From NCBI RefSeq assembly GCF_009914755.1, contig NC_060935.1: a stretch of 64,000 nucleotides of DNA; one strand, given 5' to 3'. The notes under the pieces are model-generated. The model was given only the letters and a program-made list of their open reading frames with translations. It was not told the origin of the DNA and searched no databases. Every line of letters begins with the position of its first letter. Within the stretch, counting starts at the first letter, position 1. Made by a program: the position numbers and the translations under genes. Below are positions 39,734 through 57,136 of the stretch, one piece after another. The DNA is from the human T2T-CHM13v2.0 reference genome, Homo sapiens.

Positions 39734-39944
39734 CACTGCCAGTAACTCCAACCGCAGCACGCCGGCCTGCTCGCCCATCCTCCGGAAGCGGTCTCGCTCG
39801 CCAACCCCGCAGAACCAGGACGGAGACACCATGGTGGAGAAGGGCTCAGATCACTCCTCGGACAAGTCCCCGTCCACACCGGAGCAGGGCGTGCAGCGCA
39901 GCTGCTCCTCCCAGTCCGGCCGGAGCGGCGGCAAGAATTCCAAG
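39734..39944 (+). CDS. GRAMD1B: GRAMD1B shared coding exon, 211 nt, phase 2 to phase 0: (x)TASNSNRSTPACSPILRKRSRSPTPQNQDGDTMVEKGSDHSSDKSPSTPEQGVQRSCSSQSGRSGGKNSK
   Basis: Pyrimidine tract plus CAG acceptor at 39731-39733 and AAG|GTGAGC donor at 39945. The translation matches the Aster-B N-terminal Ser-rich region as I recall it. The internal ATG at 39831 (accATGG, strong Kozak) can start an MVEKG... isoform. Confidence 0.95.
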
Positions 39945-40776
39945 GTGAGCGGGACCCCGTTGAGGCGGTACCTCCTTGTCAGGGGCTGCGGGGAGCGATA
40001 TTGGGGTGGTGAGCCGGAGAACATCTGCGAGGGTCCTCACGTGATGAACAGCCCTGATGGCTCAGAGACAGTCATTATCCAGTGAGGTGAGGCGGGGCAG
40101 GCAGGAGAGACCCTAGTTAAATATCTTCCCCGCTAAGCATTCTTGGTGGGCTGGGCGAGGTAGGGAGGCTCATATTTTTTTTTTTTAGATTTGGAGGGGA
40201 GACGCTCTGGGAATCATTAGGGGGTCATCTGCTTATTCCTGCTACCGTTTTCAAATTTGGTTCCTAGAGCCGGGGTAGAAGGCAACATTATTTGGGACAT
40301 TATACTGCTAGGGAGAGTCCTCAGGGAACCTTGCAGAATGCTATTTTTAACCTCCTCCCCGGCCATCCTTCCTGCCTTACCTTTGCACTAATCCACTTGG
40401 TACTCACCTGGCAGAGAGGAGGGTGGCAGGGCCTTTCCATCCTCCCAAGGATGTCAGGACTGCCCCCTGAGTACCGGGGCCCTTGGCCCATGGATATGCC
40501 TAAAATAGGCCCCAGGGGGGCCTGGGCTAATTATGGTTCCCCAGAGATGTCTTCCCCACCCTCGGTCCTTTGGGGAGCAGGAGATGTCTTTGCCCAGGGT
40601 CTCCTTCAGGAAACTTCTCTTCACCCTGGGACCCCCAGGGCCTGGGAAGGGGTTGGGGACCCCTGGGAGGCATGGGAGCTGGCTTCCCACTTGAATTTGT
40701 CTTTTGATTTCTTGTTCTTCCTCTCCTCTTCTTCCCCACCATTTCCCAAATACCTTCTTTGCATGCATGGTCTTAG

Positions 40777-40797
40777 TCTCACAAGCGCCTCTCAAAA
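40777..40797 (+). CDS. GRAMD1B: GRAMD1B alternative 21-nt microexon, SHKRLSK (phase 0/0)
   Basis: ttctttgcatgcatggtcttAG|TCT CAC AAG CGC CTC TCA AAA|GTAAGC. It is frame-preserving and matches a 7-aa insert I recall from a longer GRAMD1B isoform. Confidence 0.8.
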
Positions 40798-43085
40798 GTA
40801 AGCCATCTTTTGTCTCTGTCCTTTTATCTCCCCTCTAGTGTCGATCTGTCTGTAGTGCTCAGCACCCCCTCCCTCTGGCCCTGCCGATTCTGGCCCTTAT
40901 ATCCTGCTTGGTCCCTTTCCCAGAAGGGCCGGCCCCACTGTCCCCCGGCAGGCTGGCTTGGAAGTCATTGAAGGCCCATTTTCACTGCACCTGATGTCGG
41001 AGAACAGACCCTCCCCCACTCCCGACCCTGCACCCATGTCTGCCTGCTCCCTGGACACTGCCTCTGGCTGGGAGTTTATTCCCTCCTTACATGGTGCGGT
41101 CGAGAAACAGAGCCCTGCCTGGCGTTAGTTTCATTCCTTTGGGGCAGGAGACCCCATCTGGTTGTACTCCAGGCCCCTCCCCTTTGGTGGTTGATTCTGG
41201 ATTGCCCAGCAGTGGTGAGTGAGGATGGCAGGAGGGCTGCGCTGACTGGGGGGCAGGGGTTCAGGTCGATGAGTTCATTGGTGCAGCAGCCACGCCCTCA
41301 GGAGCTCTGCCTGCGTACTCTGTTCCTCCCCACTCGAGAGCTGCTCAACCTGGGCACCCCTTAGCATTTCTAACCACTGCCCAGACTGGGGTTCATGGTG
41401 TGCTTAGGATCCTGAATCATGATCAGAGGGGAAAGCTGTTCTCCCAGAGGGTGGGGTGCCCATGCCTGGAGGTTGGCAAACATTGGCAGAACCTGGAGAG
41501 ATGTGGCCAGTGCCAGAGTCTTTCCCGGGAGCCCAGGAATTCTGAGGCCACAGGAGAACGTGCAGCGAGTGGAGGGTGAGCGATAGGTGTTGTGGAACAA
41601 CAAGGCCCATGGGGCAAGGAGGTGGGATGCAGCCCGAAGAAGGGGAAGCCGAGGATGACTTAATAATAGTCCCAAGTCTCTCCGTGCTTTGGGGAGGAGG
41701 AGGGTGAACAGCTGTTCCCTTTCCTAAGGGAAGCACAAGGGGCGACACGGCTAATCCTGTAGTCTGTGATCTTTAGACTAAATGCACATCTTGGCTGTGA
41801 GGATTTTAAATGGCCGTTCCTGGCTGTGGACAGGGAAGGAGGAACTTTACCTGGAGCGAGGAAGCCAGCAGGAGATCTCTGTGGGCTCCAGCGGCTCGGC
41901 AGGTGCAGGCATATCTGATATCTGGGAATGGGGTTTTGAAATGCCCTGTGGCAGCCCCCTCTTGAGTGCCTCCCACCTCTGGCCTGGTTGATGTGGGACT
42001 AGTGGGTGCTCGAGGCTCAGCTGGCAAGAGGGTGGATATGGCCTGACAGGGGCATCAGGCTCCCCACTCCCTGCTCCTGCACACTTTTCCATCCAGATTC
42101 TGTACACCCTAAGCCTGGCTCTTGAGTAGTTGGGGATGTTCTGTAAGCTCCGAGGTAGGATAAATCATTTGAGTGGGGCAGCCAGGACAGGCGTCAGGGA
42201 CCAGGTAGAATTCTGAGTGGGGTTTTGGAGATGCTAAAAGGAGACATAATGAAGGGACTGAGAGCTGAGCAGGAATCAGGGGCCAAACTGGGCCTTTTCA
42301 TAGGAACTGAGGAGGGAGGTGCTGGGGTGAGTGCAGGTCTCCTTTCCCCTGGGAGATTGGGTGGACGCCATGCCCATCCCTGGCAGACACATTCTGAGTT
42401 TTCTGACATTGGTTACCCACTTCCCCACCTCATTCTCCCACTGATCATTGCCATCGACACTTGCCCTGCCATCCTTTCAATGGAGTTAAAAGAGGACGGG
42501 CTTGTGCCAGGAGGGACACTGTAGCATCCCACGTGGAGCTGGGAGCCATTGCATTGGCCTGGGACGTGCATGTGCAGGACACACAGACTTCAGAAGAGGA
42601 ACACAAGAACCAGTAGGGGAATTAGGTTCTTTGAAGGCCAGGGCCTGAAGTAGATGGTGCGGCAAAAAGAGGAGGTTCTGGTAGCGGGATGGGGACATGC
42701 CCCTCCCCGTGGAACATCTTCTGGGGTTAATCACATGTCTTCCCAGCAAGCCATTTCATAGCTGTTTTTACTGATATTGTTGTAGCTGGTCCACCTCACT
42801 CCCTGTCTCCTGGCCACCCCTAGAGGACACCATGCCTTATATTTTTTGGGCAAGCTGGCCAGTGCCTCTGCTTCTCCCTGGGGTCAGGTCCCATGCACGG
42901 TGTCTTTCTTCCCTTCTCTGGGCCTCAGTTTCCTCATTTGCTACTATGTAGGCATGGCACCAGGTGATCGCTAAGGCCCGACCCCTCTGGATCCATCATT
43001 GTGCTGTCCAGGCCGACCCTCCTAGGTGCAGTCCGGCCCCAGCACTTCCCTCCCAATGAGTTTGTGCTACCGCCCAGCTTCCGCT

Positions 43086-43120
43086 CTGTAGTGACAGCCT
43101 GTGGCCACCAGAGGGAGCGA
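43086..43120 (+). promoter_or_regulatory. Candidate CTCF site with upstream motif
   Basis: Core TGGCCACCAGAGGGAGCGA at 43102-43120, preceded by CTGTAGTGAC, in a CpG-rich patch. Confidence 0.65.
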
Positions 43121-43312
43121 GGGGCCGTTCTGCCGCTCTCCCACCTGCCCTGAGGGCGCTATGCAGCAGGTGCGGCAAAGCGCGCCTCCTCCCGCCCTGC
43201 TGCACACCTCCCCACCGCGGTGCGGGCATCGCGCTGGCGCTGTGGCACTGACCCTTCTTTGACTTTCCTTTTTTTTTTTTTTCAAATCTAATTTTTGTGG
43301 TTTTCTTTCCAG

Positions 43313-43336
43313 TATGACAGACTTAACCTGATCAAA
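43313..43336 (+). CDS. GRAMD1B: Candidate GRAMD1B 24-nt microexon, YDRLNLIK (phase 0/0)
   Basis: Long T-rich tract (43250-43310) with a CTAAT branch-like motif, then ttttctttccAG|TAT GAC AGA CTT AAC CTG ATC AAA|GTAAGA. In frame with the flanking exons and has no stop. Confidence 0.7.
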
Positions 43337-45350
43337 GTAAGAATTGTTTTTTATTTCTAACTCCTACTAAATGTAGAGCTCTCCTAGTCCCTGCCCCCCT
43401 ACCTCCTCCACACCCCGCACCTTACTTAATCTTCCAGACTCCCGGAGCCTTCGCGGTGGGAGATGTTTCTGGAAACCACCTCCCAGTAACCTGGGTCTGT
43501 TTCCAGGGGCCTTGCATTCCTTTAAGTGCTTGCTCTTCAGACCTTCTAGGAAAAATGATAGAAACGAGCATGTCCCCAACAGCTGTGTCTTTGTCCTGAC
43601 TCCCTTCTTCCTCTTTGGCCAAATCCATGTGTTTATAAGCTGTCAGAGAAGGCTCCACTGCTGCTCCCTGGTTCTGTGCCTTCCTTCCCTCTGGCCTGGT
43701 CCTCCAGGTAGGGGCGCTACAGCAAACTAAAGCCAGAGGATGAGGGACGCCCCTTCTCACCCCCAGAGGCCGGCAGCTCCTCTGACTTCCCTGCCCCTGT
43801 GGGTCTGGGTCCTTCCCGTCTGGCAGAGCCTTTGGGACTCATTTCCGGGAATGCAGAACCACGGGGATTGAATGTGCCTCTGGGCAGAGTTCAGGGACCC
43901 CTGCCCACAGTGGACAGGCTCGGGGGCTGCTTTGGACGTGGCTGGAGGGGGGACCCATTTTTCCTGTGGCCCCTCAGTGGCAGCAGGTAAGAAGCTGCCT
44001 GGAGATTGCTGGTTCAGGGCAGAGCCTCAGCACAGTCCTACTCCTTGGTATGTTTCACGTTTCTTTTCAGTTCTTTAGTACATGTTCTTACCCACGCTTT
44101 ACAAAAGAGCAAACATTAGATATAAGAGCATCACAGATCAGGTTAAAGACAGGACTGGCTTCCCTGCCTGAGGCTGTGTGTGACCCTCACACTTTGTTCC
44201 ACATAGATTTGGAAGGCACAAGCGCCGATGTGCCAGCCCATGCAAAGGGACCATCTGCTTCTGTCTACCTGGGGCAGGAGGGAGCCCCGTGCAGGAGGAG
44301 TCACAGGCATCCGGGGTCCCCCTGTCAGCCCATGTTCCTGTTGCCCCCTTTCCTCCCAGCGTCTTACACGAAGGTCACGGCATTGAGACGAGGAGCTGGG
44401 AGCTTGGGAGATGGTTTCTCCGTTGTAAAGCAGGGATCTCGTGACCTGGGTTGCATTTGAGGAAGCACAAGGAGACTGTGGGGCTGCTGGGGCCGGCAGC
44501 TCCCAGAGCGCACCTTCCTACTGCTGGGAGGTGTCTTTTGTAATGAACATCTGCACAGCCTCTTGCCCTGTGGGCTTCGGATCAGGGCTTCTGTGTGAGG
44601 ACGCAGGAAGTGAGCCATCCCTAGGCGCAGACGCCAGACGCAGCCTGCTTGCCCCATCCACCCCCTCCAGAAGGGGGTAGCCTTGGCTGCAATGCCTAGA
44701 GGCGAGTTTTCAGGTCCCGGACTCCCATGTGGCCGCACCTTTGTCAGGAAAAAATAGTTTTTAATATTTGGATTTGGGCCCTTTACCTGCTGAGACCTCT
44801 GAATTGGAGGTGGGGATGAGGCTAAGATGGGAGGGTGTGGCCTCTGGATGGACCGTGGTGACAGGTTGGGAAGTGACCCTGGAGAGCACCTTGCAGAGGG
44901 GGACTGGGAGCCTTGCTACTGGCCTCTAGTCACATCCTGGCCATCGAGGGCATGTGTGAGGACGAAGCTGCTCAGAAGCAGCCCCACCCACGCGAGGCCC
45001 CTCAGCCCCCTCCAGCTCCTCTGTGGACTGGTTTCACTGTGGGGGGTGAAGGTGGACCGTCTTTACAGAGTTCAGGTGGAATGGGGGAGATAGATCACAT
45101 GGCCACTGGTCATCACCGCGGGCACACACCCACCCTTGTGCGTAGTCGCTTCCTTCCCTCTAGACACAGCAGACATTCGAGGACCATGGCTACTCTTGTC
45201 TGCCCTTCTGGGTTGGGACGCTTTAACACCAGGTGGAGGGGATCCAGACCTCTGGGTGGAGCTAAGGTATTGATCTGTGAGCAAAGCTCCCCCACCCAGC
45301 GATCCCTAAAACTGAAAATAATCTAAGCTCCACCGAGAGATGGAGCTTAG

Positions 45351-45848
45351 GCATGTGTGTGTGTGCATGCGCACGTGTGTGCGTGTGTATGTGTGTGAAT
45401 GTATGTGTGTATATATGTGTGTCTCTGTATATGTGTGTGTCTCTGTGTGTATGTATGTGCCTGTGTGTATATGTGTGTGTATATGTGTGGTGTGTGTGCA
45501 TGTGCACATGTATTTGTGCATGTCTGCATGTGTGGGTGGTGTGTATGTGTTTGTGTATATGTGTGTGTACGTGTATTCGTGCGTGTGTGGTGTGTATGTG
45601 TGCATGTCTGTGTGAATGTGTGTGCACATGCGCATGTGTGTGTGCATGTGTGTGTGGTGTGTGTGAATGTGTGTGTGCACGTGTGGATGTGTGTGCATGT
45701 GTGTGGTGTGCACGTGTGCATGTGTGTATGTGTGTGTGCACGTGTGTGGTGTGTATGTGTGCGTGTGTGTGTGTGTCTGTGTATATGTGTGTGTACTTGT
45801 GTATTTGTGCGTGTATGTGTATGAGTATGTGTGTGTATATGTGCACAC
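45351..45848. repeat. Degenerate (TG)n/(CATG) simple repeat, ~500 bp
   Basis: Alternating purine-pyrimidine tract with at least 8 TGCATG hexamers. Confidence 0.93.
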
Positions 45849-46678
45849 AAGCTTGTCTATCTGCGTGTCCATCTATCTTTCAAGGGGGATGTACATGAAG
45901 GACTACTGGCCATAGGGCTTGAAGACAGACAAGGCACGATCTTAGCTATCCCTCCTGTTCCCCTGAGACACATTCAGGTCCCCTTCCTCCTGGGTCTGGG
46001 AATGGAGAACACTTAAGTTCTGGAGCTGGGGTGGGGTCTGTTTTGCTTGTTCTGAATTATGGCACCACTGGGTTGGAATGGACCCTTAGTGATTATGTGC
46101 TTCAACCTCCTGCCCCACGCAGAACCCCCAGGCACTCCCCGACCATTGCAGTTTAGGTACAGCCCATTTTTTGGCGCAGGAGGGATTTACTCACCCGCCT
46201 GCTGAGAGTGCAGTTGGAGGGAGTTTTAGGTAGTCCCCTTTCTACCTCGAAAGTGTCCCACCCTGCCTTTTACAGGGGGCTGTCTTAGAGCAGAAGGCTG
46301 GGTTGGCCGCCATCAGCATTTTGCTTCTGGTCAGGGCCCATTTGGGGACTGGGTCTCCAATGCCCACAGCGCGCCCCTCACCCCATCAGAACCTTGCGAT
46401 GGGGCTCCGACTCCCTTCCGGTTGAGCTCTAGCTGGTGCTGCCGCTGCCTGCCACCCCGCCCGCGGTGGGCTTCCAGCATGGACTGCTCCCGGGCCTCCT
46501 TTCTGGAACTGCCTTGAGAAAGGAGGACCCCTCCTGAGCAACCACATGGGAAGCATTCAGCTGCATTTGGACCCCTCCTCCCTGCCCACCCTCCGCTGTC
46601 TGTGTGCCCTTCCCCCTGGCCCTTCCCCCCATTTCTTCCCTGACTAATTCTACCTTCTCTTTCATTTTCTCTTTTCAG

Positions 46679-46699
46679 AAAAGCCAGAGTTGGTATAAT
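46679..46699 (+). CDS. GRAMD1B: GRAMD1B 21-nt microexon, KSQSWYN (phase 0/0)
   Basis: ttcattttctcttttcAG|AAA AGC CAG AGT TGG TAT AAT|GTAAGT. It supplies the ...NSK-KSQSWYN-VLSPTY... junction of Aster-B. Confidence 0.92.
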
Positions 46700-46741
46700 G
46701 TAAGTATTCCTGTTTCCCTTCTTGTTGGGTACCTGAGAAAT

Positions 46742-47391
46742 GGGAGGGGGAATGGAGGTTGGGGGGAAAGGGTGTGGGGTGCGATTGGGGGAGGGGGAAT
46801 GGAGGTTGGGGGAAGGGGTGTGGGGTGCGGTTGGGGGAGGGGGAATGGAGGTTGGGGGAAGGGGTGTGGGGTGCGGTTGGGGGAGGGGGAATGGAGGTTG
46901 GGGGAAGGGGTGTGGGGTGCGATTGGGGGAGGGGGAATGGAGGTTGGGGGGAAGGGGTGTGGGATGCGATTGGGGGAGGGGGAATGGAGGTTGGGGGGAA
47001 GGGGTGTGGGGTGCGGTTGGGGGAGGGGGAATGGAGGTTGGGGGGAAGGGGTGTGGGGTGCGGTTGGGGGAGGGGGAATGGAGGTTGGGGGAAGGGGTGT
47101 GGGGTGCGATTGGGGGAGGGGGAATGGAGGTTGGGGGAAGGGGTGTGGGGTGCGATTGGGGGAGGGGGAATGGAGGTTGGGGGGAAGGGGTGTGGGATGC
47201 GATTGGGGGAGGGGGAATGGAGGTTGGGGGAAGGGGTGTGGGGTGCGGTTGGGGGAGGGGGAATGGAGGTTGGGGGAAGGGGTGTGGGGTGCGGTTGGGG
47301 GAGGGGGAATGGAGGTTGGGGGAAGGGGTGTGGGGTGCGGTTGGGGGAGGGGGAATGGAGGTTGGGGGAAGGGGTGTGGGGTGCGGTTGGG
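46742..47391. repeat. G-rich minisatellite, 46-47-bp unit GGGGGAGGGGGAATGGAGGTTGGGGG(G)AAGGGGTGTGGGGTGCG(G/A)TT, 14 copies
   Basis: 14 AATGGAGG cores counted; five G4+ runs per unit. Confidence 0.95.
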
Positions 47392-50300
47392 CTTTCCTGT
47401 GGGCTTCTTTCCTTGGCAGCCCCTTTGCTCCTAAACCAGCTGCAGCGGTTATTTTCTTCAGCAGGACAGGGCAGCCTTGGGGAGGGAGGATTGCATTCAG
47501 GGGACCAAGGAGGCGTGGCCAGCTGTATCCCCTGCCTCACCTAGGCTCTTAGACAAGGGTCTGTCAACCCTAAAAGAGGAGACCAGTCAGGGAGGGAGTG
47601 GCCATTCCAGACCCTGACAGAATTCTGGTGCTGGGGCAGCCTGGGGGCCTGAACTTAGTTTTCTTCCCTTAACATTTTGGGGCAAATGCAGCGAGAAAAC
47701 TTTCCCCCATTGATAGAAGAGTCAACCCATGTGCTGGGATTTGACCCCTGTCCCAAGTACCCCTTCAACAGCTGCAAAAGCGTGCCCTTCCTACAAGGCC
47801 TCCTGGTGCTTGGGACTGTGGTGAAGGTGTGGCGTGGGGCCACTGTCTAGGTCATCCTGGGGCGCCCTGTGCAGCTGCTGCATACCTAGAAACTGTTGTG
47901 GGGTAAGCAGGCCTGGCAGAGGCCACCGCCTGTCACTCACACAAACTGGGTGGTGGGATTTGGACGTTTTCCTCTGCAGAGCAGCTGTCTGAGGCTCTCA
48001 GCTGGCCCCCGCCGTGTGTTCTGCTCTTTGGGGACTTCACAGTGGAGGGGCTGACCTCAGATGACCCTCTTTGCCTCTCTGAGCCTGCCCTCCTCACACC
48101 TAACTCTGATGAATCCTGGGAAAGCCATCTTTGCCCCCTCCCCGGACACACCAGGTTCTGCTGCAGCAGGAGATATGGGCATGGAGTAGCTGTGGCTGTG
48201 AAGGACAGAGCTGAGGAGGGTACTCTGGCCAGGGGATGGGCTGGAGGGGAGAGGTGTGGGTTTAATGTAGGGACAGGGTTGCAGATCAATTGTGTGGGCT
48301 GTGTGTGTTTTCCTACTTGGCGCTGGGCGGTTCCTCAAAGTCAGGCATGTGCTCACGAGCCCTGTGGCTGCCAACATCCTGCTGCCCAGTGACCAGCCCG
48401 TCCTGGGTGCTGTTGATTTGCAAGCCTTGGCTGCCACCTGCCCAGCACCGCAAACAAGGCAGAATTTGGTGGGCTGTGCTGAGTTGTGGAGAGAGTTATG
48501 GGCTGAGGTATCTTGGGGTGGGAGAGAAGCCACACTCTACTTCTATCTCTGAGCCACCCCCTTACCTTCTAGGAGGTTTCCTGGCCTGTGGCGTCAGAAG
48601 AGGGGAGGGGGATGAGTGCTGAGCTTCCTGGGAGCGACCCGCAGCCCAGCTGTCATGGGGACCCCAGCATCCTTCACTCAACTCTCCCTTGCACCTTTTT
48701 AAGCAGCATCGCACAAACTCAGGCCCCCATAGGGGAACAGGACCCACGTGGCTGCAGGCCTGTTAGTTCAGACATCTCCGTTTGGACAGGCCAGCCCCTG
48801 TCCTTGTTGCTAATCTCCTTCCTCTTCTCATCTGTCATTTCTCTTTTTATTGCTCTTTAGCTCAGACTTTTGTTTTGTCTCAGCCTGTGCTTCCTTGGAT
48901 TCTTCTCAGCCCTTTGCTTTCTGACTCCACCCCTTTCCTTTCCTTTAATCTCCTACCATTAGCTTCTTTCTCTGATTTCCATTCTCCCGGCTAGGTTTCC
49001 CTCTCTGTCTGATTCTAACAGGCTTTACTTCTCCCCTTCTTTCCGCCATCCTTTCCCCCTGTTTCCTTCTCCCTTAGCCTCCGCCTGAGTACTCAGCATA
49101 GCGATGGGGTAGAAGCAGATGCTGTCTCTTGGCTGGAGGATGGGGTGGGCCAGAAGTCAGGGGTTCGGATGACACATATGAGAGCCAGCGGAGGAGCTGG
49201 GCGTGACGGAGTCCTGCTTTCTGATGGTTCCACCTGCACCATGTCTGTGCAGAAGCTGTTGGACCTCAGCGACTCTGCATCATCCTCCTAGATGTTCTCT
49301 TTTCCCAGCCTTGTCCTGCCTCTTCCTCTATTAATTCTCACTTGTCTCCTTTCACCTTCCACCCTCTCATCCCAAGTGCATTACAGAAACATCCCTGACT
49401 CTCCACTTAGCTCAGATCATTCATTCTCAGAGGCCAAGCGCACAAGGGGCTCTTTGCTGAGGAGTGTGTGGGGCGGTCCTCTCCTGGACTCATGCGGTCC
49501 CTCTGGGGGTCCGCCCTCGGGTGACAGGGCACCCTGCTCCTTCAGTGTGCAGTGCTCATGTCCGTGCTTTCATGTGCAGATGCCTCCTTAGGAGCTGCAG
49601 CTGAACGAGCTCCTCTCCGCAGCACCCCTCCACAGCTGTCATCTGCGCCTCTTCAGGAGGCCCTTGCCCTGCCCCTGCTGCTTTGACCTGGTTTTCTGTG
49701 TTCCTTCAGGGAGCTCCACCTTCCTGCCTTGCCTCTGCTGGGCTGGTTGGAATCTGCCCTTCAGGCAGGATCCCTCTCCCCTTCTCAGCTTTGCTGACTG
49801 TCCCTCTATAACCTCTCTCCGGATCCCAGGGTCAGTGCTGCAGCCATTCTGATATCTGAGGCTCATTCGTTACACTAGACGTCCTTCAGATAGGTAAAGG
49901 CATTGTAACGCCCAGCCCTGGGGATGCTTAGGAAACCCCTGGCTGGAGTCAGGGCAGTGAGGGCCAGTGCCCTGCAGAATCGCTGATAGTGGCAAGAGCA
50001 TTCAGGCCCACTGGAGCAGCCTGGGTCTGGTGGGAAAAGCCCAGCCACCAACCAGTCCATGCCCCAGCCTCCCCTTCACCTGCTGCCTCTCTGCAGAAGA
50101 CAAAAGCATTTCCTTTGACATGACCAGCCAGGGAGGAGCCATTGCCATGATGACAGACATGCTTGGTCTAAAGAGTGAGTCATGCGGAGGCAAGTGGCTG
50201 GACCCCAGGGACACAGGGAGAGGCCATAGCAGGAGAGTGTCAGGTCCAGAGTGGGGTTTGAAGGCAGTGCCATCTACAGGTGCCCTGAGTCCTCCCATGC

Positions 50301-51800
50301 CCAATTATATGTACTCCTCCTTACCCCCGAAGCCCCAGTCTACCACCCCAGTCATATTCATCAGGGCCTTCAGATCAAGGGAGCTGCCCTAGTAGACATG
50401 AGATGGAGGGAAAAGCAGAAATAGGGTTTTGCCTTCAGCAGGGAGCCAAGGGCAGAGTTGAGGGGCAACCTGGCCAGGGCCACTGGGGCAAGAGGGGTGA
50501 AATTTACTCCCCCTCAGCCCCCAACGGGGCATAACATCACAGGGGTTTCCTTCCTTGGCCTCCTGGCGCATTCCTGCGGGCAGTCTTCTCCATGGCAGCC
50601 CCAGAAGGAGCATTTCTGAGATCAGAGCACAGGAGCCCAGACCCTGGCAGCCGCCTGAGACTTAGCACCCTGCTTGCCTGAAGCACCTGCAGTTAGGGCT
50701 GCAGCTTTGTGGAGGAGAGGGAGGGATAGTGCCAAGCCTGGGGAGTGGCTGGCACAAGCGAGAAAGCAAAAGAACAAAGGTTTGTAGGAATGGAATCCAG
50801 GGTGTTGGGGTTGGGCAGCGGAGAGGGTAGGAGACCTGCCTCGAACCTGGTGTTGCTCCAGGACTGACACTGCTCCTCCTCCTCTGTCTGTCTCCCCTCT
50901 CTATTTACTCCCAACTTGAAGGGTCTTCCTGCCTCCCTTCCTGAGTTTTTCAGATGAGCCCCCAGCCCAGCCCAGCCCCACCCCTTCTCTACCCTTCTCC
51001 ATAGCCCCCATGCCTGCCTCAGTCTCCCTTTCCCTCCTTTGCTCAGTTACGTCCTCGTCTCCCGTCCCACTCTGCCTTCTGCCTATCCAGATTTGGCTGT
51101 AAGGTCAGAGTTTCCTGTGTGGATCTTAACTGGTTTCTTCCTAGCTGAGATCAATGCCCCACCGAAATCCATCTGTTTTCTCCTGGGCTCCTCCACCCCC
51201 TCCTTCTCGCCATCCCTGGGAAGAGGGTACCACTTGGTCCCAGCTCCTGGTGTTTGCCGTAGAGTTAATGTTTAGCCCAGGGTCAATTCGTTCTCTGCTG
51301 GCTCTCACCCAGCCCTGCCCAGCCCTTGGCATGGGTGTGGGGGAGACAAAGCCTTCTGCGTACGGGACTCATCTCCCAGGGCTTTATCTCACAGGGCGTA
51401 TCCTGTCTCTATCTCACCCCTTACAGCTCAGGCAGCCACTTGGCCTGTAGCAATACTCAAATGTTTTTGGGTAGTTACTGTAAGGATCCAGAGCCTCCTG
51501 GAGCTACCTACAGCCTACATACTGGGGTCTGGTGTCACCCCAAGGGAGGCATTCTGATCACCTTGGAAAATGGACTTGCTACGTTTGCCTGCCACGCTGC
51601 TCGGGATAGGGCTGACATGCAGGGCGAAGAGAAGTTTGCACGTGTGCTGGGGAGAGTGTTGGCAGCAACCAGGTACTGACACGCCAAGCATATAGAATCA
51701 GGGATCTTCGTGTGTACATGTAAGATGCAGTGTCAACAGGCATCCTTTGAGAGGTAGATAAGGAATGCATTCACTTGGTAAATACTTTCTTAGCACCTGA

Positions 51801-52162
51801 TACAGTATCCCTTATCCAAAATGTTTGGGATCAGATGTGTTTTGGATTTCTGATTTTTTTGGATTTTGGAATATTTGCATATATATATAATGAGATATCT
51901 TGGGACCCAAGTCTAAACACCAAATTTATTTCCTATATCCCTTATACATATAGCCTGAGGATAATTTTATATAATATTTTAAATAATTTTATGCACAAAG
52001 AAAAGTGCTGACTGTGTTCCATTCCTACAAACCTTTGTTTGTGACCGGAATGTGTCACATGAGCAGCGTGTCACGTGAGGTCAGGTGTGGAGTCTTCTGC
52101 TTGCGGCATCATGTTGGGGCTCAAAGGGTTTCATGTTTTCAGATTAGGGATGCTCAACCTGT
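51801..52162. mobile_element. Tigger4 (Zombi/MER46)-like TcMar MITE
   Basis: Termini ...tatcccttatccaaaatg and gattagggatgctcaacctg are Tigger4-type TIRs. Confidence 0.75.
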
Positions 52163-52428
52163 CCTTGAAACATATCACGGCAAGTGCAGTAGAAGATATG
52201 AACCTGTTTGAGGCATAGATCCTTCCTGGAGGTGTCCTTCAGACAGAGTGAGACATGCTACACCATGAATGGAGAGCTGCGTCTGCATCCGTGGGGTGTC
52301 CATCTAGAGAGGGTTGTAGGAGTTTGTTAGGGGAGGGTTTGCAGGAGGAGTCAGACTCTTCTACTTTCTCCAACACTGTTTACCTGGGAGAATCCAGGTT
52401 CCTTTAAATTAGCATCTTTGGAATCTAC

Positions 52429-52731
52429 TTTTTTTGAGAGTCTCTCTCTGCCGCCCAGGCTGGAGTGCAGTGGTGCGATCTCCGCTCACTGCAACCTCCA
52501 CCTCTGAGGTTCGAGCAATTCTCCTGCCTCAGCCTCCTGAGTAGCTGGGATTACAGACACCTGCCACCATGTGTGGCTAATTTTTATATATATATATATA
52601 TATATATTTGTAGTAGAGACGGGGTTTCACTATGTTGGCCAGGCTGGTCTCACACTCCTGACCTAAAGTGATCCGTCCGAATTGGCTTCCCAAAGTGCTG
52701 GGATTACAAGCACGAGCCACTGTGCCCAGCC
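52429..52731 (-). mobile_element. Alu (S-type) with a (TA)n linker, inserted in a MER5-like fragment
   Basis: TSD GGAATCTAC on both sides. Confidence 0.88.
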
Positions 52732-53469
52732 TGGAATCTACGTTTTTACATGTGTTCACTGGGCCATTTTGAAGTACAGTAAAGTTTGGGGGCTGCTGTA
52801 TTAAATTACCAAGACTCCTAAGACAAAAGCACCATTCCTAATCCTATGCGGGCCAAGACCCTCCTGGCAAGGTGGCAGAGCTGGGGAGAGTGAGGGAGCA
52901 GCCCCATTTGTTTTAAGGGTCTGACTTTTCCTGGGAATCCACATCTTCCCCACCCCACTGCTGTCTCATCCCTGTCCCTAGCTTCTTGGTCTGGAGGCTT
53001 TCTTGCCCCATTGGCCTGGCTTTCATTTCCCTGGATTTTGCTGCTTTGAGGACCAAAATCTGTGCTTTTAGTATTGCTACTTTGACCTGAAGATCTGACG
53101 GTCTTTTTGGGCTTGGTCCCCCTCTTGCTAATGCTGAAGGTTGTATAGGGTCCATGGGAAGGAAGAGGGTGCCTCAGACAGATCCCGAAGCTGTTGATCT
53201 CAGCGTCTCCACCACCAGCGTGTCTGAAACTGGATCAGCAAAATCCCCAGGCTGCTACTGCTGCTTTGGGGAAGTTGGCGGATGGATGGGTTGGTGAGGT
53301 GTGAGAGTGTCTCCAAGAAGTCCCTGGCAACTTGAGTCTCACATTTCAGATTTCATCCTAACAGCAGTGCCCTGCCACCTCCCCTCCCTACTCCACGCCT
53401 CCATGTGGAGCCCTGGCCAGCAACTTTCCATTGCAGGAAACATCTGCTGGGGAGGCCAGGCTCAGCTGG

Positions 53470-53485
53470 GGGTTACTGGAGGACA
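53470..53485 (+). promoter_or_regulatory. Candidate LXR response element (DR4)
   Basis: GGGTTA-ctgg-AGGACA, ~880 bp upstream of the alternative ATG at 54365. Confidence 0.55.
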
Positions 53486-54364
53486 TTGGCCGGGACCATC
53501 ACCCAGATCCTGTAACTTGAAGCATGTGTAGGGCCCAGCTCTTCCCACCCACCTGCCCTGCCTCCCTTCTTCCCTCCCTCTCTGCCACGGGTGACTCTAA
53601 CAAAGAAGCTGTTTGCTGGTCAGGCGAGCAGAGCAGGGGCTGAGGAAAGGGGTGTGTGTTGGGCTGGGGTTGAGAGCAGGCCCTGTTGCTGCAGCCAGTG
53701 GTGGCTGCTCTGCCTGGGTGAGGGCTGTGAGTCATAGTCCAGTGCCCGCCCAGGGTAGAGGTTGATTAAACGTGCCACTCTGTGGGACAGACCAGGACTG
53801 GGGAGCTGGGCATTCGGTTCCTTTGCTGGAGTTTCAGACCAACGATGAGTCACTCTGCTGCGTCTAAGTGACTGGCGGGGTTAGACCCTGGACCCGGCTG
53901 TGGATCATCCTTGTCCTGCAGAATCTGCTTGTCCACCCAGGGGCCTGCCTCCCGGACCTCCAGCTGGCCCTGGGCACCTGCCATGCCATCTGCATCCTCT
54001 GGACCCTTGGGGTGACTGTCTGCACTGACCAGGTGGAGGTGCGTGACCACACCACCTCTGGGCTACTCTCTGCCCGTGGACCAGCCGAGAAGAAAGCAGA
54101 GCCCGCCATGGGAGACTGGCTGGCCAGCTTGTCCTGAGAACCACGCTGACCACCTCGGCTCACTTGTGAAGCTTCATGCTGGGCATGCAGCTCTAGGAGC
54201 AGAAAGGACACCTGTCAGAGTCACACAGGCCCTCTGCTGAGAAACCAGAGGCCACCCATCCACAGTCAAGCCAGGGGAGACCAGTTGTTTTCATCGTGTG
54301 GGGACAGTCGGGAGTCAGTGCTCAGGGAGCCAGGCGTCGTTGGGAGGGGCAGCCGTGCTGGGCA

Positions 54365-54511
54365 ATGGAATCACTGACGGAGTCGGGGGTCCTCTGGAGC
54401 CTTCTGCTGGAGCAGGAGAGCCAGCTGCTGCAGTGGTACCTGAAGCAGCTTGGCCATGCACCTGCTGCCGCTGAACACCGTTGCTGGCACGGATCTGAGG
54501 AAATCCCAGCC
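54365..54511 (+). CDS. GRAMD1B: Alternative first coding exon of a short GRAMD1B isoform, 49 aa: MESLTESGVLWSLLLEQESQLLQWYLKQLGHAPAAAEHRCWHGSEEIPA
   Basis: gcaATGG strong Kozak; 147-nt open frame ending exactly at a GCC|GTGAGT donor in phase 0, compatible with the VLSPTY exon. Resembles a rodent Gramd1b N-terminus I recall (MESLTESGVLWSLLL...). Confidence 0.72.
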
Positions 54512-55903
54512 GTGAGTGTGTGACTCAGTTTCTCTGAGTCTCTGTGGTAGTTCTGCACCCTTGTTATGCCACTTGGCTCTCCTACCCGAAGGCCCCAGAT
54601 TTGACAATCTTGGAACCGAAATTATTTGACCATTTTAAATTGAAATAGGTGAGCCAGGCCCCGCCTTTGGGGGTGGAGGAGGGAGAGGGCTGGGGTCCCT
54701 GGCTTCGAGAGGCTGCATGGTGGCAGGCCCAGCATGCCCAACTGATGAGCCTGCCATGCACACAACAGCCTTGTGGAATAGGCTTGTGTTGGGAAGCCTG
54801 GATAAAGGAGTTTCCAGACTGGCTGACTTAGCAGGCCAGGGCTGGATTCACTCTCCCCTCTCCCTGCCACTGCTACAGCTTTGTTTTAAGGAAAGTAGCG
54901 GCCCCCTCGATTTGCCTGCGGGTTGGAGATGGTGGCCAAACGCCCTGTACCTCCACCTCTGTGGATACCTGAGCTATTACTGGATATGTGAGAAGCAAGG
55001 GGGAGAAGGCACTAGGACAGGAAATTAGAAATAGGAAGACTTGGGGCTTCAGGGGGTTGGAGGCCTGACATCCGGTTTCACCTGAAGTGTGTTTGGGGTC
55101 TCCTGGTCGGCTGCTCCTCAGGCTGACACTGGAACTCTGTAAGTATGAAGACCTAGTAGAGGGCTTGGAAGGCTAGCAGGGGCCGCAAAGCAGGTAAATA
55201 TCTCATTCTCAAGGGAGTGTGCTCTTTTGGGGAAGCCCTTCTGCTTCCTCTTGGCAGGAGGACCAGGAGCAGTTACCCTCCAGAGGCAGCACAGAGTAGG
55301 GGCTCAGACAGCACTGAGTCAGACTGCCTCACTCATATTCCACTCCAAGTTGCTTAACTTCTCTGTTTCTCAATTTCCTCAAGTGCAAAATGGGATAATA
55401 AAAATAATCTGGGGTCTGATGCAGTGCCACATGCACATGGCTTATGGCTGTGCTTGGTAGGTGATGATAACTCCATGTTAGCCACATAGCAGCTCTAGAA
55501 GGTCAGTTAGGCATAATGAGAACTCACTGGCGATCAGGTGGTCAAGCTGGGGTTTTCAGTGTGTGGACTCTGTTCTAAGAGGCTAGGGGGCCATCTTGAT
55601 TCCATATCTCAGTGCCAGTTTGAAACTAATATAGGGGCCAGAGGAATGTTGTTTTCTAAGTTTTTTGTTGTTGTCGTTTTGTTTTGTTTTTGTAGCCATT
55701 GGCTACACCCTAGGCTGAGGGTCAGCAGTGCTGTCTCTGTGTAGGTAGTCAGTGCATCACAGGTGGAGTGTGGGTGTCTCCGTTTGGCCGTGCGTGGCTC
55801 GTCCCAGGTTTTGCACTTGATTTCATCTGTCACCCCCGGTGCTCCTCATTTGTGGGCACGTATTTTCTTTTTAGTTTCTTTTTTATTTTATTTTTTAAAT
55901 TTA

Positions 55904-56323
<420 letters not shown>

Positions 56324-57051
56324 TCATGTTGCAGTGGGGGGAAGTGAGCACAGGACCAGGGGTCATGAGATCTGACACTGACCAGCTGAGGACCTGGGGC
56401 AGGGGGCTTCTCTCTGGCCTTGGTCTCTTCCTTGATGCTGTAAGGATTGGTTTAGATAATGTAAGGATGGAGAGGGGAGTTGGATGCCTCTCGTGTGCCC
56501 GTTGTGTTTTTTTAATTCTCTATCTCTGCGCTTATTGCAGTACTGGTTTTATGTGATTTCTTAGAAAATCATGTCTTTCCCACACAGCCAAGTGCTCACT
56601 CTGATAATCACGACAACACCTTCTTCTGAGAGGTGCTCTGGGCAACATCATGGGGGGCTGGGCAGCCTTCTTGGGTCCCTGCTTCACTGTCAAGGTGGTG
56701 CTGGCAGAAGGCAGAACAGCAGTAGCTGGCATGGTGGATACCAGGAAGCACCCTGGAGGTGTCCCTCCTTCCTTTCTCTTACGGGATATAACGAGAGCCC
56801 CTCCTTGCTGTGTCTGGCATTTCTCACTGGTGGAGGCCCTGGCTGCATAGTGTTTCCCAGCACCAGATTCTCCCCACTGTGTTTCTCCACACCGAGGCCC
56901 CGTTCCTCAGCCTGGCCTCCTAGGGTCTGTGGGAGGGCAGAGCCTCATCTTTGCTTTTTAAACACACAAGCAAGTGCTCCTCATCTTGCCCTTCCTTCCT
57001 AACCCCACAGAACCGGGGTACATCCTACTAACCTTGGCTATTGTCACGCAG

Positions 57052-57136
57052 GTGTTAAGCCCCACCTACAAGCAGAGAAATGAAGACTTCAGAAAGCTCT
57101 TTAAGCAGCTTCCAGACACGGAGCGCCTCATTGTTG
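57052..57136 (+). CDS. GRAMD1B: GRAMD1B exon, start of GRAM domain: VLSPTYKQRNEDFRKLFKQLPDTERLIV(D), phase 0 to 1
   Basis: Perfect TACTAAC branch point at 57026-57032, CAG acceptor at 57049-57051, TTG|GTGAGT donor; typical GRAM-domain N-terminal motif. Confidence 0.96.

What the first reader, a model, noticed from the sequence alone, without database searches (positions are those of the whole stretch)
40777..46699. Tandem cassette of three phase-0 microexons that builds a variable basic peptide directly N-terminal to the GRAM lipid sensor
Seen: between the large exon ending ...GGKNSK and the GRAM-domain exon VLSPTY... lie three short exons of 21, 24 and 21 nt. Each has canonical AG/GTAAG sites, is a multiple of 3 and has no stop: SHKRLSK (40777-40797), YDRLNLIK (43313-43336), KSQSWYN (46679-46699). 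Known: the Aster GRAM domain binds phosphatidylserine and accessible cholesterol at the plasma membrane, and 3-27-nt frame-preserving microexons are typically neural-regulated. Inference: independent inclusion gives up to 8 linker variants, for example NSK-SHKRLSK-YDRLNLIK-KSQSWYN-VLSP. These differ in Lys/Arg and hydrophobic content and could tune the membrane-recruitment threshold, acting as a splicing dial on cholesterol sensing.
Basis: partly seen in the sequence, partly recalled or inferred. Interest (0 to 1): 0.8.

Follow-up and report, generated by a model that had tools for sequence, protein, structure and literature searches.

The report
Ancient GRAMD1B microexon cassette beside GRAM
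Three tiny in-frame exons just before the membrane-sensing GRAM domain of the cholesterol transporter GRAMD1B are real and almost unchanged from sharks to humans, and the middle one is missing from the human RefSeq gene table, but what they do is still untested.

Summary
Exons of 21, 24 and 21 nt sit at 40777-40797, 43313-43336 and 46679-46699. All are phase 0, stop-free and flanked by AG/GTAAG.

They are not chance. The same three peptides occur in the same order in Aster-B proteins of primates, rodents, bats, cats, a bird, lizards, teleosts, sharks and a ray.

The 24-nt exon (YDRLNLIK) is absent from the 46 human RefSeq transcripts in the hub table. It is modelled in Old and New World monkeys, gibbon and many other vertebrates.

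"Eight variants" overstates it:
- KSQSWYN is effectively constitutive, present in 108 of 110 parsed mammalian models.
- It belongs to a family-wide basic-cluster plus Trp motif.
- It is also a 21-nt microexon in GRAMD1A.
- So there are four main variants.

Fish, rays and a bird carry a fourth microexon (HERQHILR-like) that I could not find in human.

AlphaFold2 leaves the linker disordered. Published GRAM sensor constructs exclude it.

Membrane tuning is plausible by precedent but untested. The near-invariant peptide sequence fits a specific motif equally well. Neural regulation was not shown.

The parts
39734..39944 (+). Upstream coding exon of the long GRAMD1B isoforms. It ends in phase 0 with ..GGKNSK.
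   Evidence: plus the hub RefSeq table. Used as the 70-aa query.
40760..40769 (+). TGCATGCATG: two overlapping GCAUG (RBFOX-type) and two UGC motifs, 8-17 nt upstream of the E1 acceptor.
   Evidence: This is the only occurrence in the 64-kb window. GCATG density is 1.39 per kb. The meaning of the motifs is recalled, not tested.
40777..40797 (+). Microexon E1: 21 nt, SHKRLSK, optional. It has the weakest polypyrimidine tract of the three (70% Y).
   Evidence: Listed in the hub table as an exon of other RefSeq transcripts. Present in 41 of 110 parsed mammalian models.
43313..43336 (+). Microexon E2: 24 nt, YDRLNLIK, optional. It is not among the exons of the 46 human RefSeq transcripts in the hub table.
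   Evidence: Present in 30 of 110 parsed mammalian models. The peptide is identical in teleosts, sharks and a ray.
46679..46699 (+). Microexon E3: 21 nt, KSQSWYN, effectively constitutive in long isoforms. It carries the near-invariant Trp of the motif just before the GRAM domain.
   Evidence: In the selected RefSeq transcript. Present in 108 of 110 models. The Trp is conserved in at least 90% of a 60-sequence family alignment. The GRAMD1A paralogue has a matching 21-nt microexon.
52669..54511 (+). Alternative first exon. Its last 49 codons run from an ATG to the donor in phase 0 and would splice straight to the GRAM exon, bypassing E1-E3.
   Evidence: Matches the '49 amino acids in B1' of Xiao 2024. 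Equating this exon with Aster-B1 is an inference.
57052..57136 (+). First exon of the GRAM domain region, starting VLSPTYKQRNEDF.
   Evidence: Pfam GRAM begins 11 residues after the start of this exon (P0019 residues 210-317). The first AlphaFold2 helix is residues 205-215.

Best explanation
This is an ancient, alternatively spliced microexon cassette of GRAMD1B/Aster-B.

Shown:
- E3 (KSQSWYN) is the ancestral, essentially constitutive piece. It carries the Trp of a 'basic cluster plus S-W-Y' motif that precedes the GRAM domain throughout the family. It is a separate 21-nt exon in GRAMD1A too.
- E1 (SHKRLSK) and E2 (YDRLNLIK) were found only in GRAMD1B. They are present from cartilaginous fish to primates, are independently included or skipped, and are inserted into the middle of that basic cluster.
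- The cassette exists only in transcripts from the upstream promoters. The internal-promoter isoform bypasses it.

Inferred:
- The encoded 7-22 residues form a disordered basic and hydrophobic segment 6 residues upstream of the first GRAM helix.
- E1 adds net charge +3 and a conserved [KR][KR]x[ST] site. E2 adds four hydrophobic residues.
- Together they change how strongly, and perhaps under what signalling state, the GRAM domain engages the anionic, cholesterol-rich inner leaflet of the plasma membrane. That would set the recruitment threshold of Aster-B to ER-plasma membrane contacts.
For: Anatomy.

Independent inclusion: all four E1/E2 combinations occur among 110 parsed mammalian models.

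Deep conservation:
- The 22-residue triple linker is identical in primates, bats, cats, squirrel and many teleosts, and in a catshark.
- It also occurs in a ray, a bamboo shark (E2+E3), an eel and a bird.
- Of 148 retrieved proteins with E2, 139 have exactly YDRLNLIK. These are isoforms of many species, not independent counts.
- Two unnamed proteins of 788 and 799 aa lie on contigs of only 3.8 kb, so they are spliced transcripts. They carry all three exons.

E3 is ancestral:
- 48 of 150 family representatives show a K/R-rich stretch (median 5 K+R in 14 residues) before a conserved Trp.
- The Trp is conserved in at least 90% of alignment A1.
- GRAMD1A has a 21-nt AG/GTAAGT microexon KMQSWYS 444 nt upstream of its GRAM exon. 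No E1- or E2-like exon was found in the 9.3 kb upstream of it.

Disorder: AlphaFold2 gives pLDDT below 50 and no secondary structure for residues 158-200. The first helix is at 205-215.

Charge: linker net charge runs from +1 (E3 only) to +5 (all three), and hydrophobic or aromatic residues from 2 to 7.

All five E1 variants seen keep [KR][KR]x[ST]: SHKRLSK, CHKRLSK, SYKRLSR, SRKRLSK and SHKRHTK.

Precedent:
- Ercan 2021 (passages read) states that residues outside GRAM 92-207 may contribute to anionic-lipid sensing.
- Xiao 2024 (section 8 read) shows a longer, basic N-terminus gives stronger plasma-membrane recruitment.
Against: - No membrane-binding or localisation data exist for any linker variant. 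The isolated GRAM construct 92-207 senses lipids without any of these residues.
- Near-invariant peptide sequence over the whole of jawed-vertebrate evolution is more than a charge dial needs.
- Hydrophobic-moment analysis gives no convincing amphipathic helix. The best 11-mer has moment 0.60 but mean hydrophobicity -0.9.
- Within the 14 residues before the Trp, K+R changes only from 4 to 5 with E1 and stays at 4 with E2.
- Human use of E2 is not shown. It is absent from the 46 human RefSeq transcripts (hub table). None of the 10 great-ape proteins listed carries it. The database is clustered at 90% identity, so this is weak evidence.
- Tissue regulation is unknown.
Confidence: 0.45

Rival explanations
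1. The microexons insert specific short linear motifs for protein partners rather than tuning lipid binding. E2 would be an adaptor or sorting-type signal (YDRL fits Y-x-x-hydrophobic; DRLNLI fits [DE]xxxL[LI]). E1 would be a basophilic kinase site (KRLS). Splicing would then decide which partners or which membrane Aster-B meets.
For: - Sequence conservation is very strict. 139 of 148 E2 peptides are identical. The 9 variants (YDKLNLIK, YDRLKLIK, YDRLNLLK, YNRFYLIK) all keep Y-x-x-[LF], and 8 of 9 keep D-x-x-x-L-[IL].
- The segment is disordered, as such motifs usually are.
- The motifs appear only when the exon is included.
- The motif definitions are recalled, not taken from a tool.
Against: - Short motifs match by chance often.
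- No partner is known.
- Aster-B is ER-anchored, so a clathrin-adaptor signal has no obvious role.
Confidence: 0.3
2. E2 is a conserved exon in other vertebrates but is not, or barely, used in humans and great apes. The human RefSeq annotation would then be right to omit it.
For: - The hub table of 46 RefSeq transcripts lacks 43313-43336.
- 0 of 10 great-ape proteins among the 120 listed carry E2.
- No great-ape protein appears among the triple-linker hits.
Against: - The human sequence encodes the identical 8 residues.
- It has an intact AG, a strong polypyrimidine tract, a CTAAT branch-point candidate at -25 and a GTAAGA donor.
- The exon is modelled in gibbon, macaques, baboon and New World monkeys.
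- Clustering at 90% identity can hide human isoforms.
- Microexons are often missed by annotation (abstracts of PMC7821500 and PMC8831610, listing).
Confidence: 0.15
3. E1 and E2 are mere spacers or near-neutral variants. Isoforms would differ only in linker length, with no isoform-specific function.
For: - The region is disordered.
- Published functional work uses E3-only or cassette-less proteins without obvious defects.
Against: - Peptide-level near-identity from shark to human contrasts with the adjacent disordered residues, which do vary. For example ..RSCSSQSGRSGG in mammals against ..RTYSLQSARSGG in teleosts.
- A neutral spacer would drift.
Confidence: 0.1

Closest known systems
Vertebrate-conserved, frame-preserving microexons (3-27 nt), including the SRRM3/4-dependent neural programme
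   Same: Length, phase 0, strong donors, peptide-level conservation across vertebrates and location in a disordered surface segment next to a domain. GRAMD1B already has one listed neural, srrm3/4-dependent microexon (zebrafish gramd1ba, 12 nt; human event HsaEX0028506).
   Different: None of the three exons here is in that list. Only E1 has UGC motifs near its acceptor. Neural specificity and SRRM4 dependence are untested. E3 behaves as constitutive.
Aster-B2 versus Aster-B1 N-terminal isoforms (Xiao et al. 2024, PMC10866650; section 8 read)
   Same: Variation in the disordered region before the GRAM domain of the same protein. A more basic N-terminus gave stronger cholesterol-induced plasma-membrane recruitment.
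   Different: That variation comes from alternative promoters and first exons, not from microexons. The section read does not mention E1 or E2. The B1-type first exon (52669-54511) bypasses the cassette altogether.
GRAMD1A (Aster-A) microexon before its GRAM exon
   Same: A 21-nt phase-0 exon KMQSWYS, flanked by AG and GTAAGT, directly upstream of the GRAM exon. It is the paralogous copy of E3.
   Different: No E1- or E2-like exons were found in the 9.3 kb upstream of it.
Tandem microexon inserts that tune binding combinatorially, such as the agrin z-site exons (recalled, not checked here)
   Same: Two neighbouring optional mini-exons give four insert states next to a binding domain.
   Different: For agrin the ligand and the effect are established. 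Here neither is.
Polybasic, phosphorylatable membrane-binding segments such as the MARCKS effector domain or the K-Ras4B tail (recalled)
   Same: A disordered K/R cluster with interspersed hydrophobic or aromatic residues and a Ser in a basophilic kinase context.
   Different: No lipid binding or phosphorylation of this segment has been shown. The cluster is short.

Membership tests
Conserved alternative microexon (3-27 nt cassette exon) | Length 3-27 nt, multiple of 3, no stop, canonical splice sites | tested here: met
   21, 24 and 21 nt. Each is flanked by AG and GTAAG and is in phase 0.
Conserved alternative microexon (3-27 nt cassette exon) | Both inclusion and skipping forms exist | tested here: met
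   Met for E1 and E2: all four combinations occur among 110 mammalian gene models. For E3, skipping is seen in only 2 of 110. These are gene models, not read counts.
Conserved alternative microexon (3-27 nt cassette exon) | Conservation of the exon across vertebrates | tested here: met
   Met at the peptide level from cartilaginous fish to primates. Intron and splice-site conservation in other genomes could not be examined.
Neural SRRM3/4 (eMIC)-dependent microexon programme | Higher inclusion in neural tissue | not testable with these tools
   No expression data were available. The three exons are absent from the conserved neural microexon table of PMC12626424, which lists a different 12-nt gramd1ba exon.
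Neural SRRM3/4 (eMIC)-dependent microexon programme | UGC motif within about 20 nt upstream of the acceptor (recalled criterion) | tested here: inconclusive
   E1 has UGC at -17 and -13, inside TGCATGCATG. For E2 the nearest UGC is at -92, and for E3 at -74.
GRAM domain (Pfam PF02893) proper | Residues lie within the domain model or the folded unit | tested here: not met
   Pfam GRAM covers P0019 residues 210-317 and the cassette is residues 178-199. AlphaFold2 gives pLDDT below 50 up to residue 200. Solved GRAM structures align from residue 207 onwards.
Family-wide basic-cluster plus Trp motif just before the GRAM domain | K/R-rich stretch followed by S/T-W-[YF] a few residues before x-Y-K-x-R | tested here: met
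   E3 supplies the K..SWY part. The pattern is found in 48 of 150 family representatives. The remaining 102 did not match the pattern or lack that N-terminal region. The Trp is conserved in at least 90% of A1.
Polybasic electrostatic membrane switch | Binds anionic membranes and is released by phosphorylation | not testable with these tools
   Only composition and conservation of [KR][KR]x[ST] in 5 of 5 E1 variants were examined.

The most novel reading that the evidence does not exclude
The region before the GRAM domain of Aster-B carries an ancestral combinatorial code of four microexons: E1, E2, E3 and a fourth, HERQHILR-like exon. The fourth is kept in fish, rays and at least one bird and was not found in human or in the 110 mammalian models parsed. 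On this reading the invariant peptides are regulated targeting motifs. One is a phospho-switchable basic patch. The other is an adaptor- or partner-binding YDRLNLIK element. Together they would decide when and at which membrane the long Aster-B isoforms engage. Human annotation and all published GRAM sensors have missed this layer.
Probability: 0.25. Interest if true: 0.7.

Novelty: new member of a known kind. Interest (0 to 1): 0.45.

Why it matters
Aster-B/GRAMD1B moves accessible cholesterol from the plasma membrane to the ER. Ercan 2021 reports that the R189W change in its GRAM domain is associated with intellectual disability.

All biochemical work I read uses proteins that contain none of the optional residues:
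- The GRAM sensor is residues 92-207.
- The 'near full-length' protein is residues 82-548.
- The full-length clone is NP_065767.1, whose residue numbering matches the E3-only linker models.

An 8-residue exon that is nearly invariant from sharks to primates yet absent from the human RefSeq table is a concrete annotation gap. It is also a cheap target for experiment.

If E1 and E2 alter recruitment or partners, isoform choice would be a new control point for cholesterol sensing. It combines with promoter choice, because the internal-promoter isoform bypasses the cassette.

Tried and rejected
Literature:
- Full-text searches found no paper discussing these exons: 'GRAMD1B' with 'microexon' (0 papers); with 'alternative splicing' and 'exon' (20 papers; I opened two, neither relevant); a six-term search with splicing regulators requiring any 2 terms (none of the 20 listed mentions Gramd1b); with 'isoforms' or 'splice variant'; with 'exon inclusion' (1 review).
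- Ercan 2021 and Naito 2019 contain 0 occurrences of 'isoform' and 'splice'.
- Supplement searches for Gramd1b: MicroExonator PMC7821500 gave 0 of 7 files. PMC12626420 gave 0 of 12. PMC4387716 gave 0, with one file not searched. PMC7935315 gave only gene-expression rows, with 6 of 18 files not searched. PMC12626424 gave only the 12-nt exon.
- Irimia 2014 was not held under the id I tried. Gene tables that use coordinates or Ensembl ids would escape these searches.
- VastDB, GENCODE, GTEx and phyloP could not be consulted.

Sequence and structure:
- I scanned the human intron for a counterpart of the fourth (fish/bird) microexon. The best 24-nt window scores 22 (HCRKHLLG) and has no splice sites, so it was rejected.
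- I looked for an amphipathic helix in the linker and found nothing convincing.
- AlphaFold2 of the full 848-aa triple-linker isoform with a 60-sequence alignment leaves the linker unstructured. This says nothing about membrane- or partner-induced structure.
- I rejected the nested shorter acceptors (RLSK, SWYN) and the WQQ, NQGSSCVH and GSSCVH candidates, because none occurs among the linkers of the 239 proteins.

I did not run a complex prediction, because I claim no protein-protein binding.
Full report
**1. Observation**

- E1, 40777-40797: 21 nt, SHKRLSK, flanked by AG and GTAAGC.
- E2, 43313-43336: 24 nt, YDRLNLIK, flanked by AG and GTAAGA.
- E3, 46679-46699: 21 nt, KSQSWYN, flanked by AG and GTAAGT.

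The upstream exon 39734-39944 ends in phase 0 with ..GGKNSK. The exon at 57052 begins VLSPTY. Any combination of the three therefore keeps the reading frame.

According to the hub's RefSeq table, E3 is in the selected transcript and E1 is in other transcripts. E2 is in none of the 46 transcripts.

**2. Is it more than chance?**

The bare pattern is common. AG, then 9-30 nt in multiples of 3 without a stop, then GTAAG occurs 8 times in the 17,107-nt intron, with 3 of those nested. Shuffles give a mean of 4.9. Requiring a pyrimidine-rich upstream 20 nt leaves E2, E3 and a 9-nt WQQ candidate, against 0.025 expected. E1 has a weaker tract (70% pyrimidine).

Orthology is the decisive evidence.
- I searched a large protein database with the 70-aa upstream exon, asking for longer proteins. 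This gave 1040 hits, of which 120 were listed, all mammalian.
- In 110 of the 120 the linker between ..KNSK and VLSPTY could be parsed. The other 10 run into intron or have other junctions.
- Counts among the 110: E3 only 56; E1+E3 22 (one reads CHKRLSK); E2+E3 11; E1+E2+E3 19 (one YDKLNLIK, one YDRLKLIK); no microexon 2 (both Ensembl gorilla models).
- E2 therefore appears in gene models of macaques, baboon, marmoset, squirrel monkey, capuchin, owl monkey, ground squirrel, guinea pig and rabbit.
- None of the 10 great-ape proteins listed, the one human entry included, carries E2. The database is clustered at 90% identity, so this is weak evidence against human use.

**3. Depth of conservation**

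I ran two further searches centred on the linker. They are biased towards inclusion forms, so they give no frequencies.
- The 22-residue triple linker is identical in gibbon, cats, bats, squirrel and many teleosts, and in a catshark.
- It is also present in a stingray, an eel and a bird. A bamboo shark model has E2+E3. Two lizard models have E2+E3 preceded by different short peptides.
- Over the 239 GRAMD1B-type proteins retrieved, 148 carry an E2 peptide and 139 of those are exactly YDRLNLIK. These are isoforms, not independent samples.
- The residues just upstream in the same disordered region do differ between mammals and fish.
- Two unnamed proteins of 788 and 799 aa lie on contigs of only 3.8 kb. 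They must be spliced transcripts, and they carry all three exons.

A fourth 8-residue insert (HERQHILR, with variants HERQHIMR, HERQHLLR and HERQYIRR) follows E3 in many teleosts, the eel, the ray and the bird. None of the 110 mammalian models has it. The human intron has no recognisable counterpart: the best 24-nt window scores 22 and lacks splice sites.

**4. E3 is different from E1 and E2**

I searched representatives of the whole family. This gave 4959 hits, of which 150 were listed.
- A K/R-rich stretch followed by S/T-W-Y/F lies a few residues before the x-Y-K-x-R-x-x-F start of the GRAM region. It occurs in GRAMD1A-like proteins and in distant, presumably invertebrate homologs. An example is ..KKKKSSSWYNVLNPTYKSRSDDF.
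- The pattern is seen in 48 of the 150 representatives, with a median of 5 K+R in the 14 residues before the Trp.
- In a 60-sequence alignment the Trp of E3 is conserved in at least 90% of sequences, and the Tyr of VLSPTY is invariant.
- In the human genome, GRAMD1A has a 21-nt exon KMQSWYS flanked by AG and GTAAGT, 444 nt upstream of its MLSPTYKQ exon. No E1- or E2-like exon was found in the 9.3 kb upstream of it. GRAMD1C shows no such microexon in the stretch fetched.

So E3 is an old, essentially constitutive exon. E1 and E2 (and the fourth exon) were found only in GRAMD1B. They insert between the basic residues and the K..SWY element. The realistic repertoire is four variants, not eight.

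**5. Structural and experimental context**

- Pfam places the GRAM domain at residues 210-317 of the triple-linker protein P0019. The cassette is residues 178-199.
- AlphaFold2 with the 60-sequence alignment gives pLDDT below 50 and no secondary structure for residues 158-200. The first helix is at 205-215. Overall mean pLDDT is 64.8, and the folded domains are confident.
- No solved structure covers the linker. GRAM matches start at residue 207.
- Ercan et al. 2021 (PMC7957428, passages read) defined the GRAM sensor as residues 92-207 of NP_065767.1 and the near full-length protein as 82-548.
- By my numbering, residue 92 is the K of KQRNEDF and residue 82 is the S of SWYN. These constructs therefore lack E1, E2 and all or most of E3.
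- The same paper notes that basic-patch mutants of the near full-length protein still tether membranes. It says residues outside the GRAM domain may contribute to anionic-lipid sensing.
- Xiao et al. 2024 (PMC10866650, section 8 read) describe Aster-B2. It is a long-N-terminus isoform from an upstream promoter and is recruited to the plasma membrane more strongly than Aster-B1. The authors suggest the basic character of the N-terminus matters.
- In the window, the alternative first exon 52669-54511 ends with an open frame of exactly 49 codons from an ATG to the donor, in phase 0. This matches their '49 amino acids in B1'. The short isoform therefore most likely bypasses the whole cassette, which is my inference.

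**6. Mechanism**

Shown: the exon anatomy, independent inclusion in gene models, deep conservation, predicted disorder and the position next to the GRAM domain.

Inferred: function.
- The linker's net charge rises from +1 (E3 only) to +4 (E1+E3), +2 (E2+E3) and +5 (all three). Hydrophobic or aromatic residues rise from 2 to 7.
- All five E1 variants keep [KR][KR]x[ST], including SHKRHTK, where Ser becomes Thr.
- My preferred reading is that E1 and E2 modulate an auxiliary membrane-engaging segment beside the GRAM domain. E1 could be switchable by phosphorylation.

Against this reading:
- The strictness of sequence conservation.
- The weak amphipathic signal.
- The small change in local K+R count.
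- The absence of any direct data.

The main rival is that the exons insert specific linear motifs. E2 fits both Y-x-x-hydrophobic and [DE]xxxL[LI], by recalled definitions. All 9 variant peptides keep the first pattern and 8 of 9 keep the second.

**7. Regulation**

I could not test tissue specificity.
- E1 is preceded by TGCATGCATG at -17 to -8, the only such decamer in the window. By recalled knowledge this offers UGC (SRRM4-type) and UGCAUG (RBFOX) sites. RBFOX sites upstream of an exon usually repress it.
- E2 and E3 have long pyrimidine tracts and no nearby UGC.
- A zebrafish study's supplementary table of conserved neural microexons lists one gramd1ba exon of 12 nt. It has neural dPSI 91, dPSI -44 in srrm3/4 mutants, and human event HsaEX0028506. 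It lists none of the three exons here.
- A 4-residue ICFS difference in the transmembrane region separates otherwise identical isoform pairs. It is probably that exon. It lies outside the window, since the matching genomic region is near window position 82,000.

**8. Novelty**

E1 and E3 are annotated. E2 is annotated in many other species but not in the human RefSeq table. I found no paper that discusses the cassette (supplements).

This is a new member of a known kind: a conserved alternative microexon cluster. It has a concrete human annotation gap and an untested, plausible role in setting how Aster-B meets the plasma membrane.

Noticed in passing
Proteins P0176-P0218, P0372, P0380, P0386 and others; human intron 46700-57051: A fourth 8-residue insert (HERQHILR, HERQHIMR, HERQHLLR or HERQYIRR) follows KSQSWYN in teleosts, an eel, a stingray and a bird. 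None of 110 mammalian models has it, and no counterpart with splice sites exists in the human intron.
   Followed up: partly
window 52669-54511: An alternative first exon ends with a 49-codon open frame from an ATG to the donor in phase 0. It would join directly to VLSPTY and so bypass all three microexons. This matches the 49-residue N-terminus reported for Aster-B1 (PMC10866650).
   Followed up: partly
window 40760-40769: TGCATGCATG lies immediately upstream of the E1 acceptor and is unique in the 64-kb window. It is a candidate RBFOX/SRRM4-type regulatory element.
   Followed up: partly
outside the window, near G000:C11:123648074 (about window position 82,000): A 4-residue ICFS difference in the transmembrane region separates otherwise identical Aster-B isoform pairs. 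It probably corresponds to the 12-nt neural, srrm3/4-dependent microexon listed for zebrafish gramd1ba and human HsaEX0028506.
   Followed up: partly
L005:9340-9360 (G000:C19, GRAMD1A): GRAMD1A has a paralogous 21-nt microexon KMQSWYS flanked by AG and GTAAGT, 444 nt upstream of its GRAM exon. The same zebrafish supplement also lists a neural gramd1a microexon, whose position I did not determine.
   Followed up: partly
proteins P0384 (Anolis) and P0388 (Heteronotia): The lizard models carry different short peptides (RASSFPN, VSPV) where E1 would be, followed by normal E2+E3. This could be a lineage-specific exon or a gene-model artefact.
   Followed up: no
window 43978-43986: A 9-nt candidate microexon (WQQ) has a pyrimidine-rich upstream tract and a GTAAG donor. 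It is not seen among the linkers of the 239 retrieved proteins, so it is probably chance.
   Followed up: partly
protein P0013 (Pteropus isoform X2): This model joins KSQSWYN directly to ..LTVRLKD. It skips the first GRAM exons and would destroy the GRAM domain.
   Followed up: no
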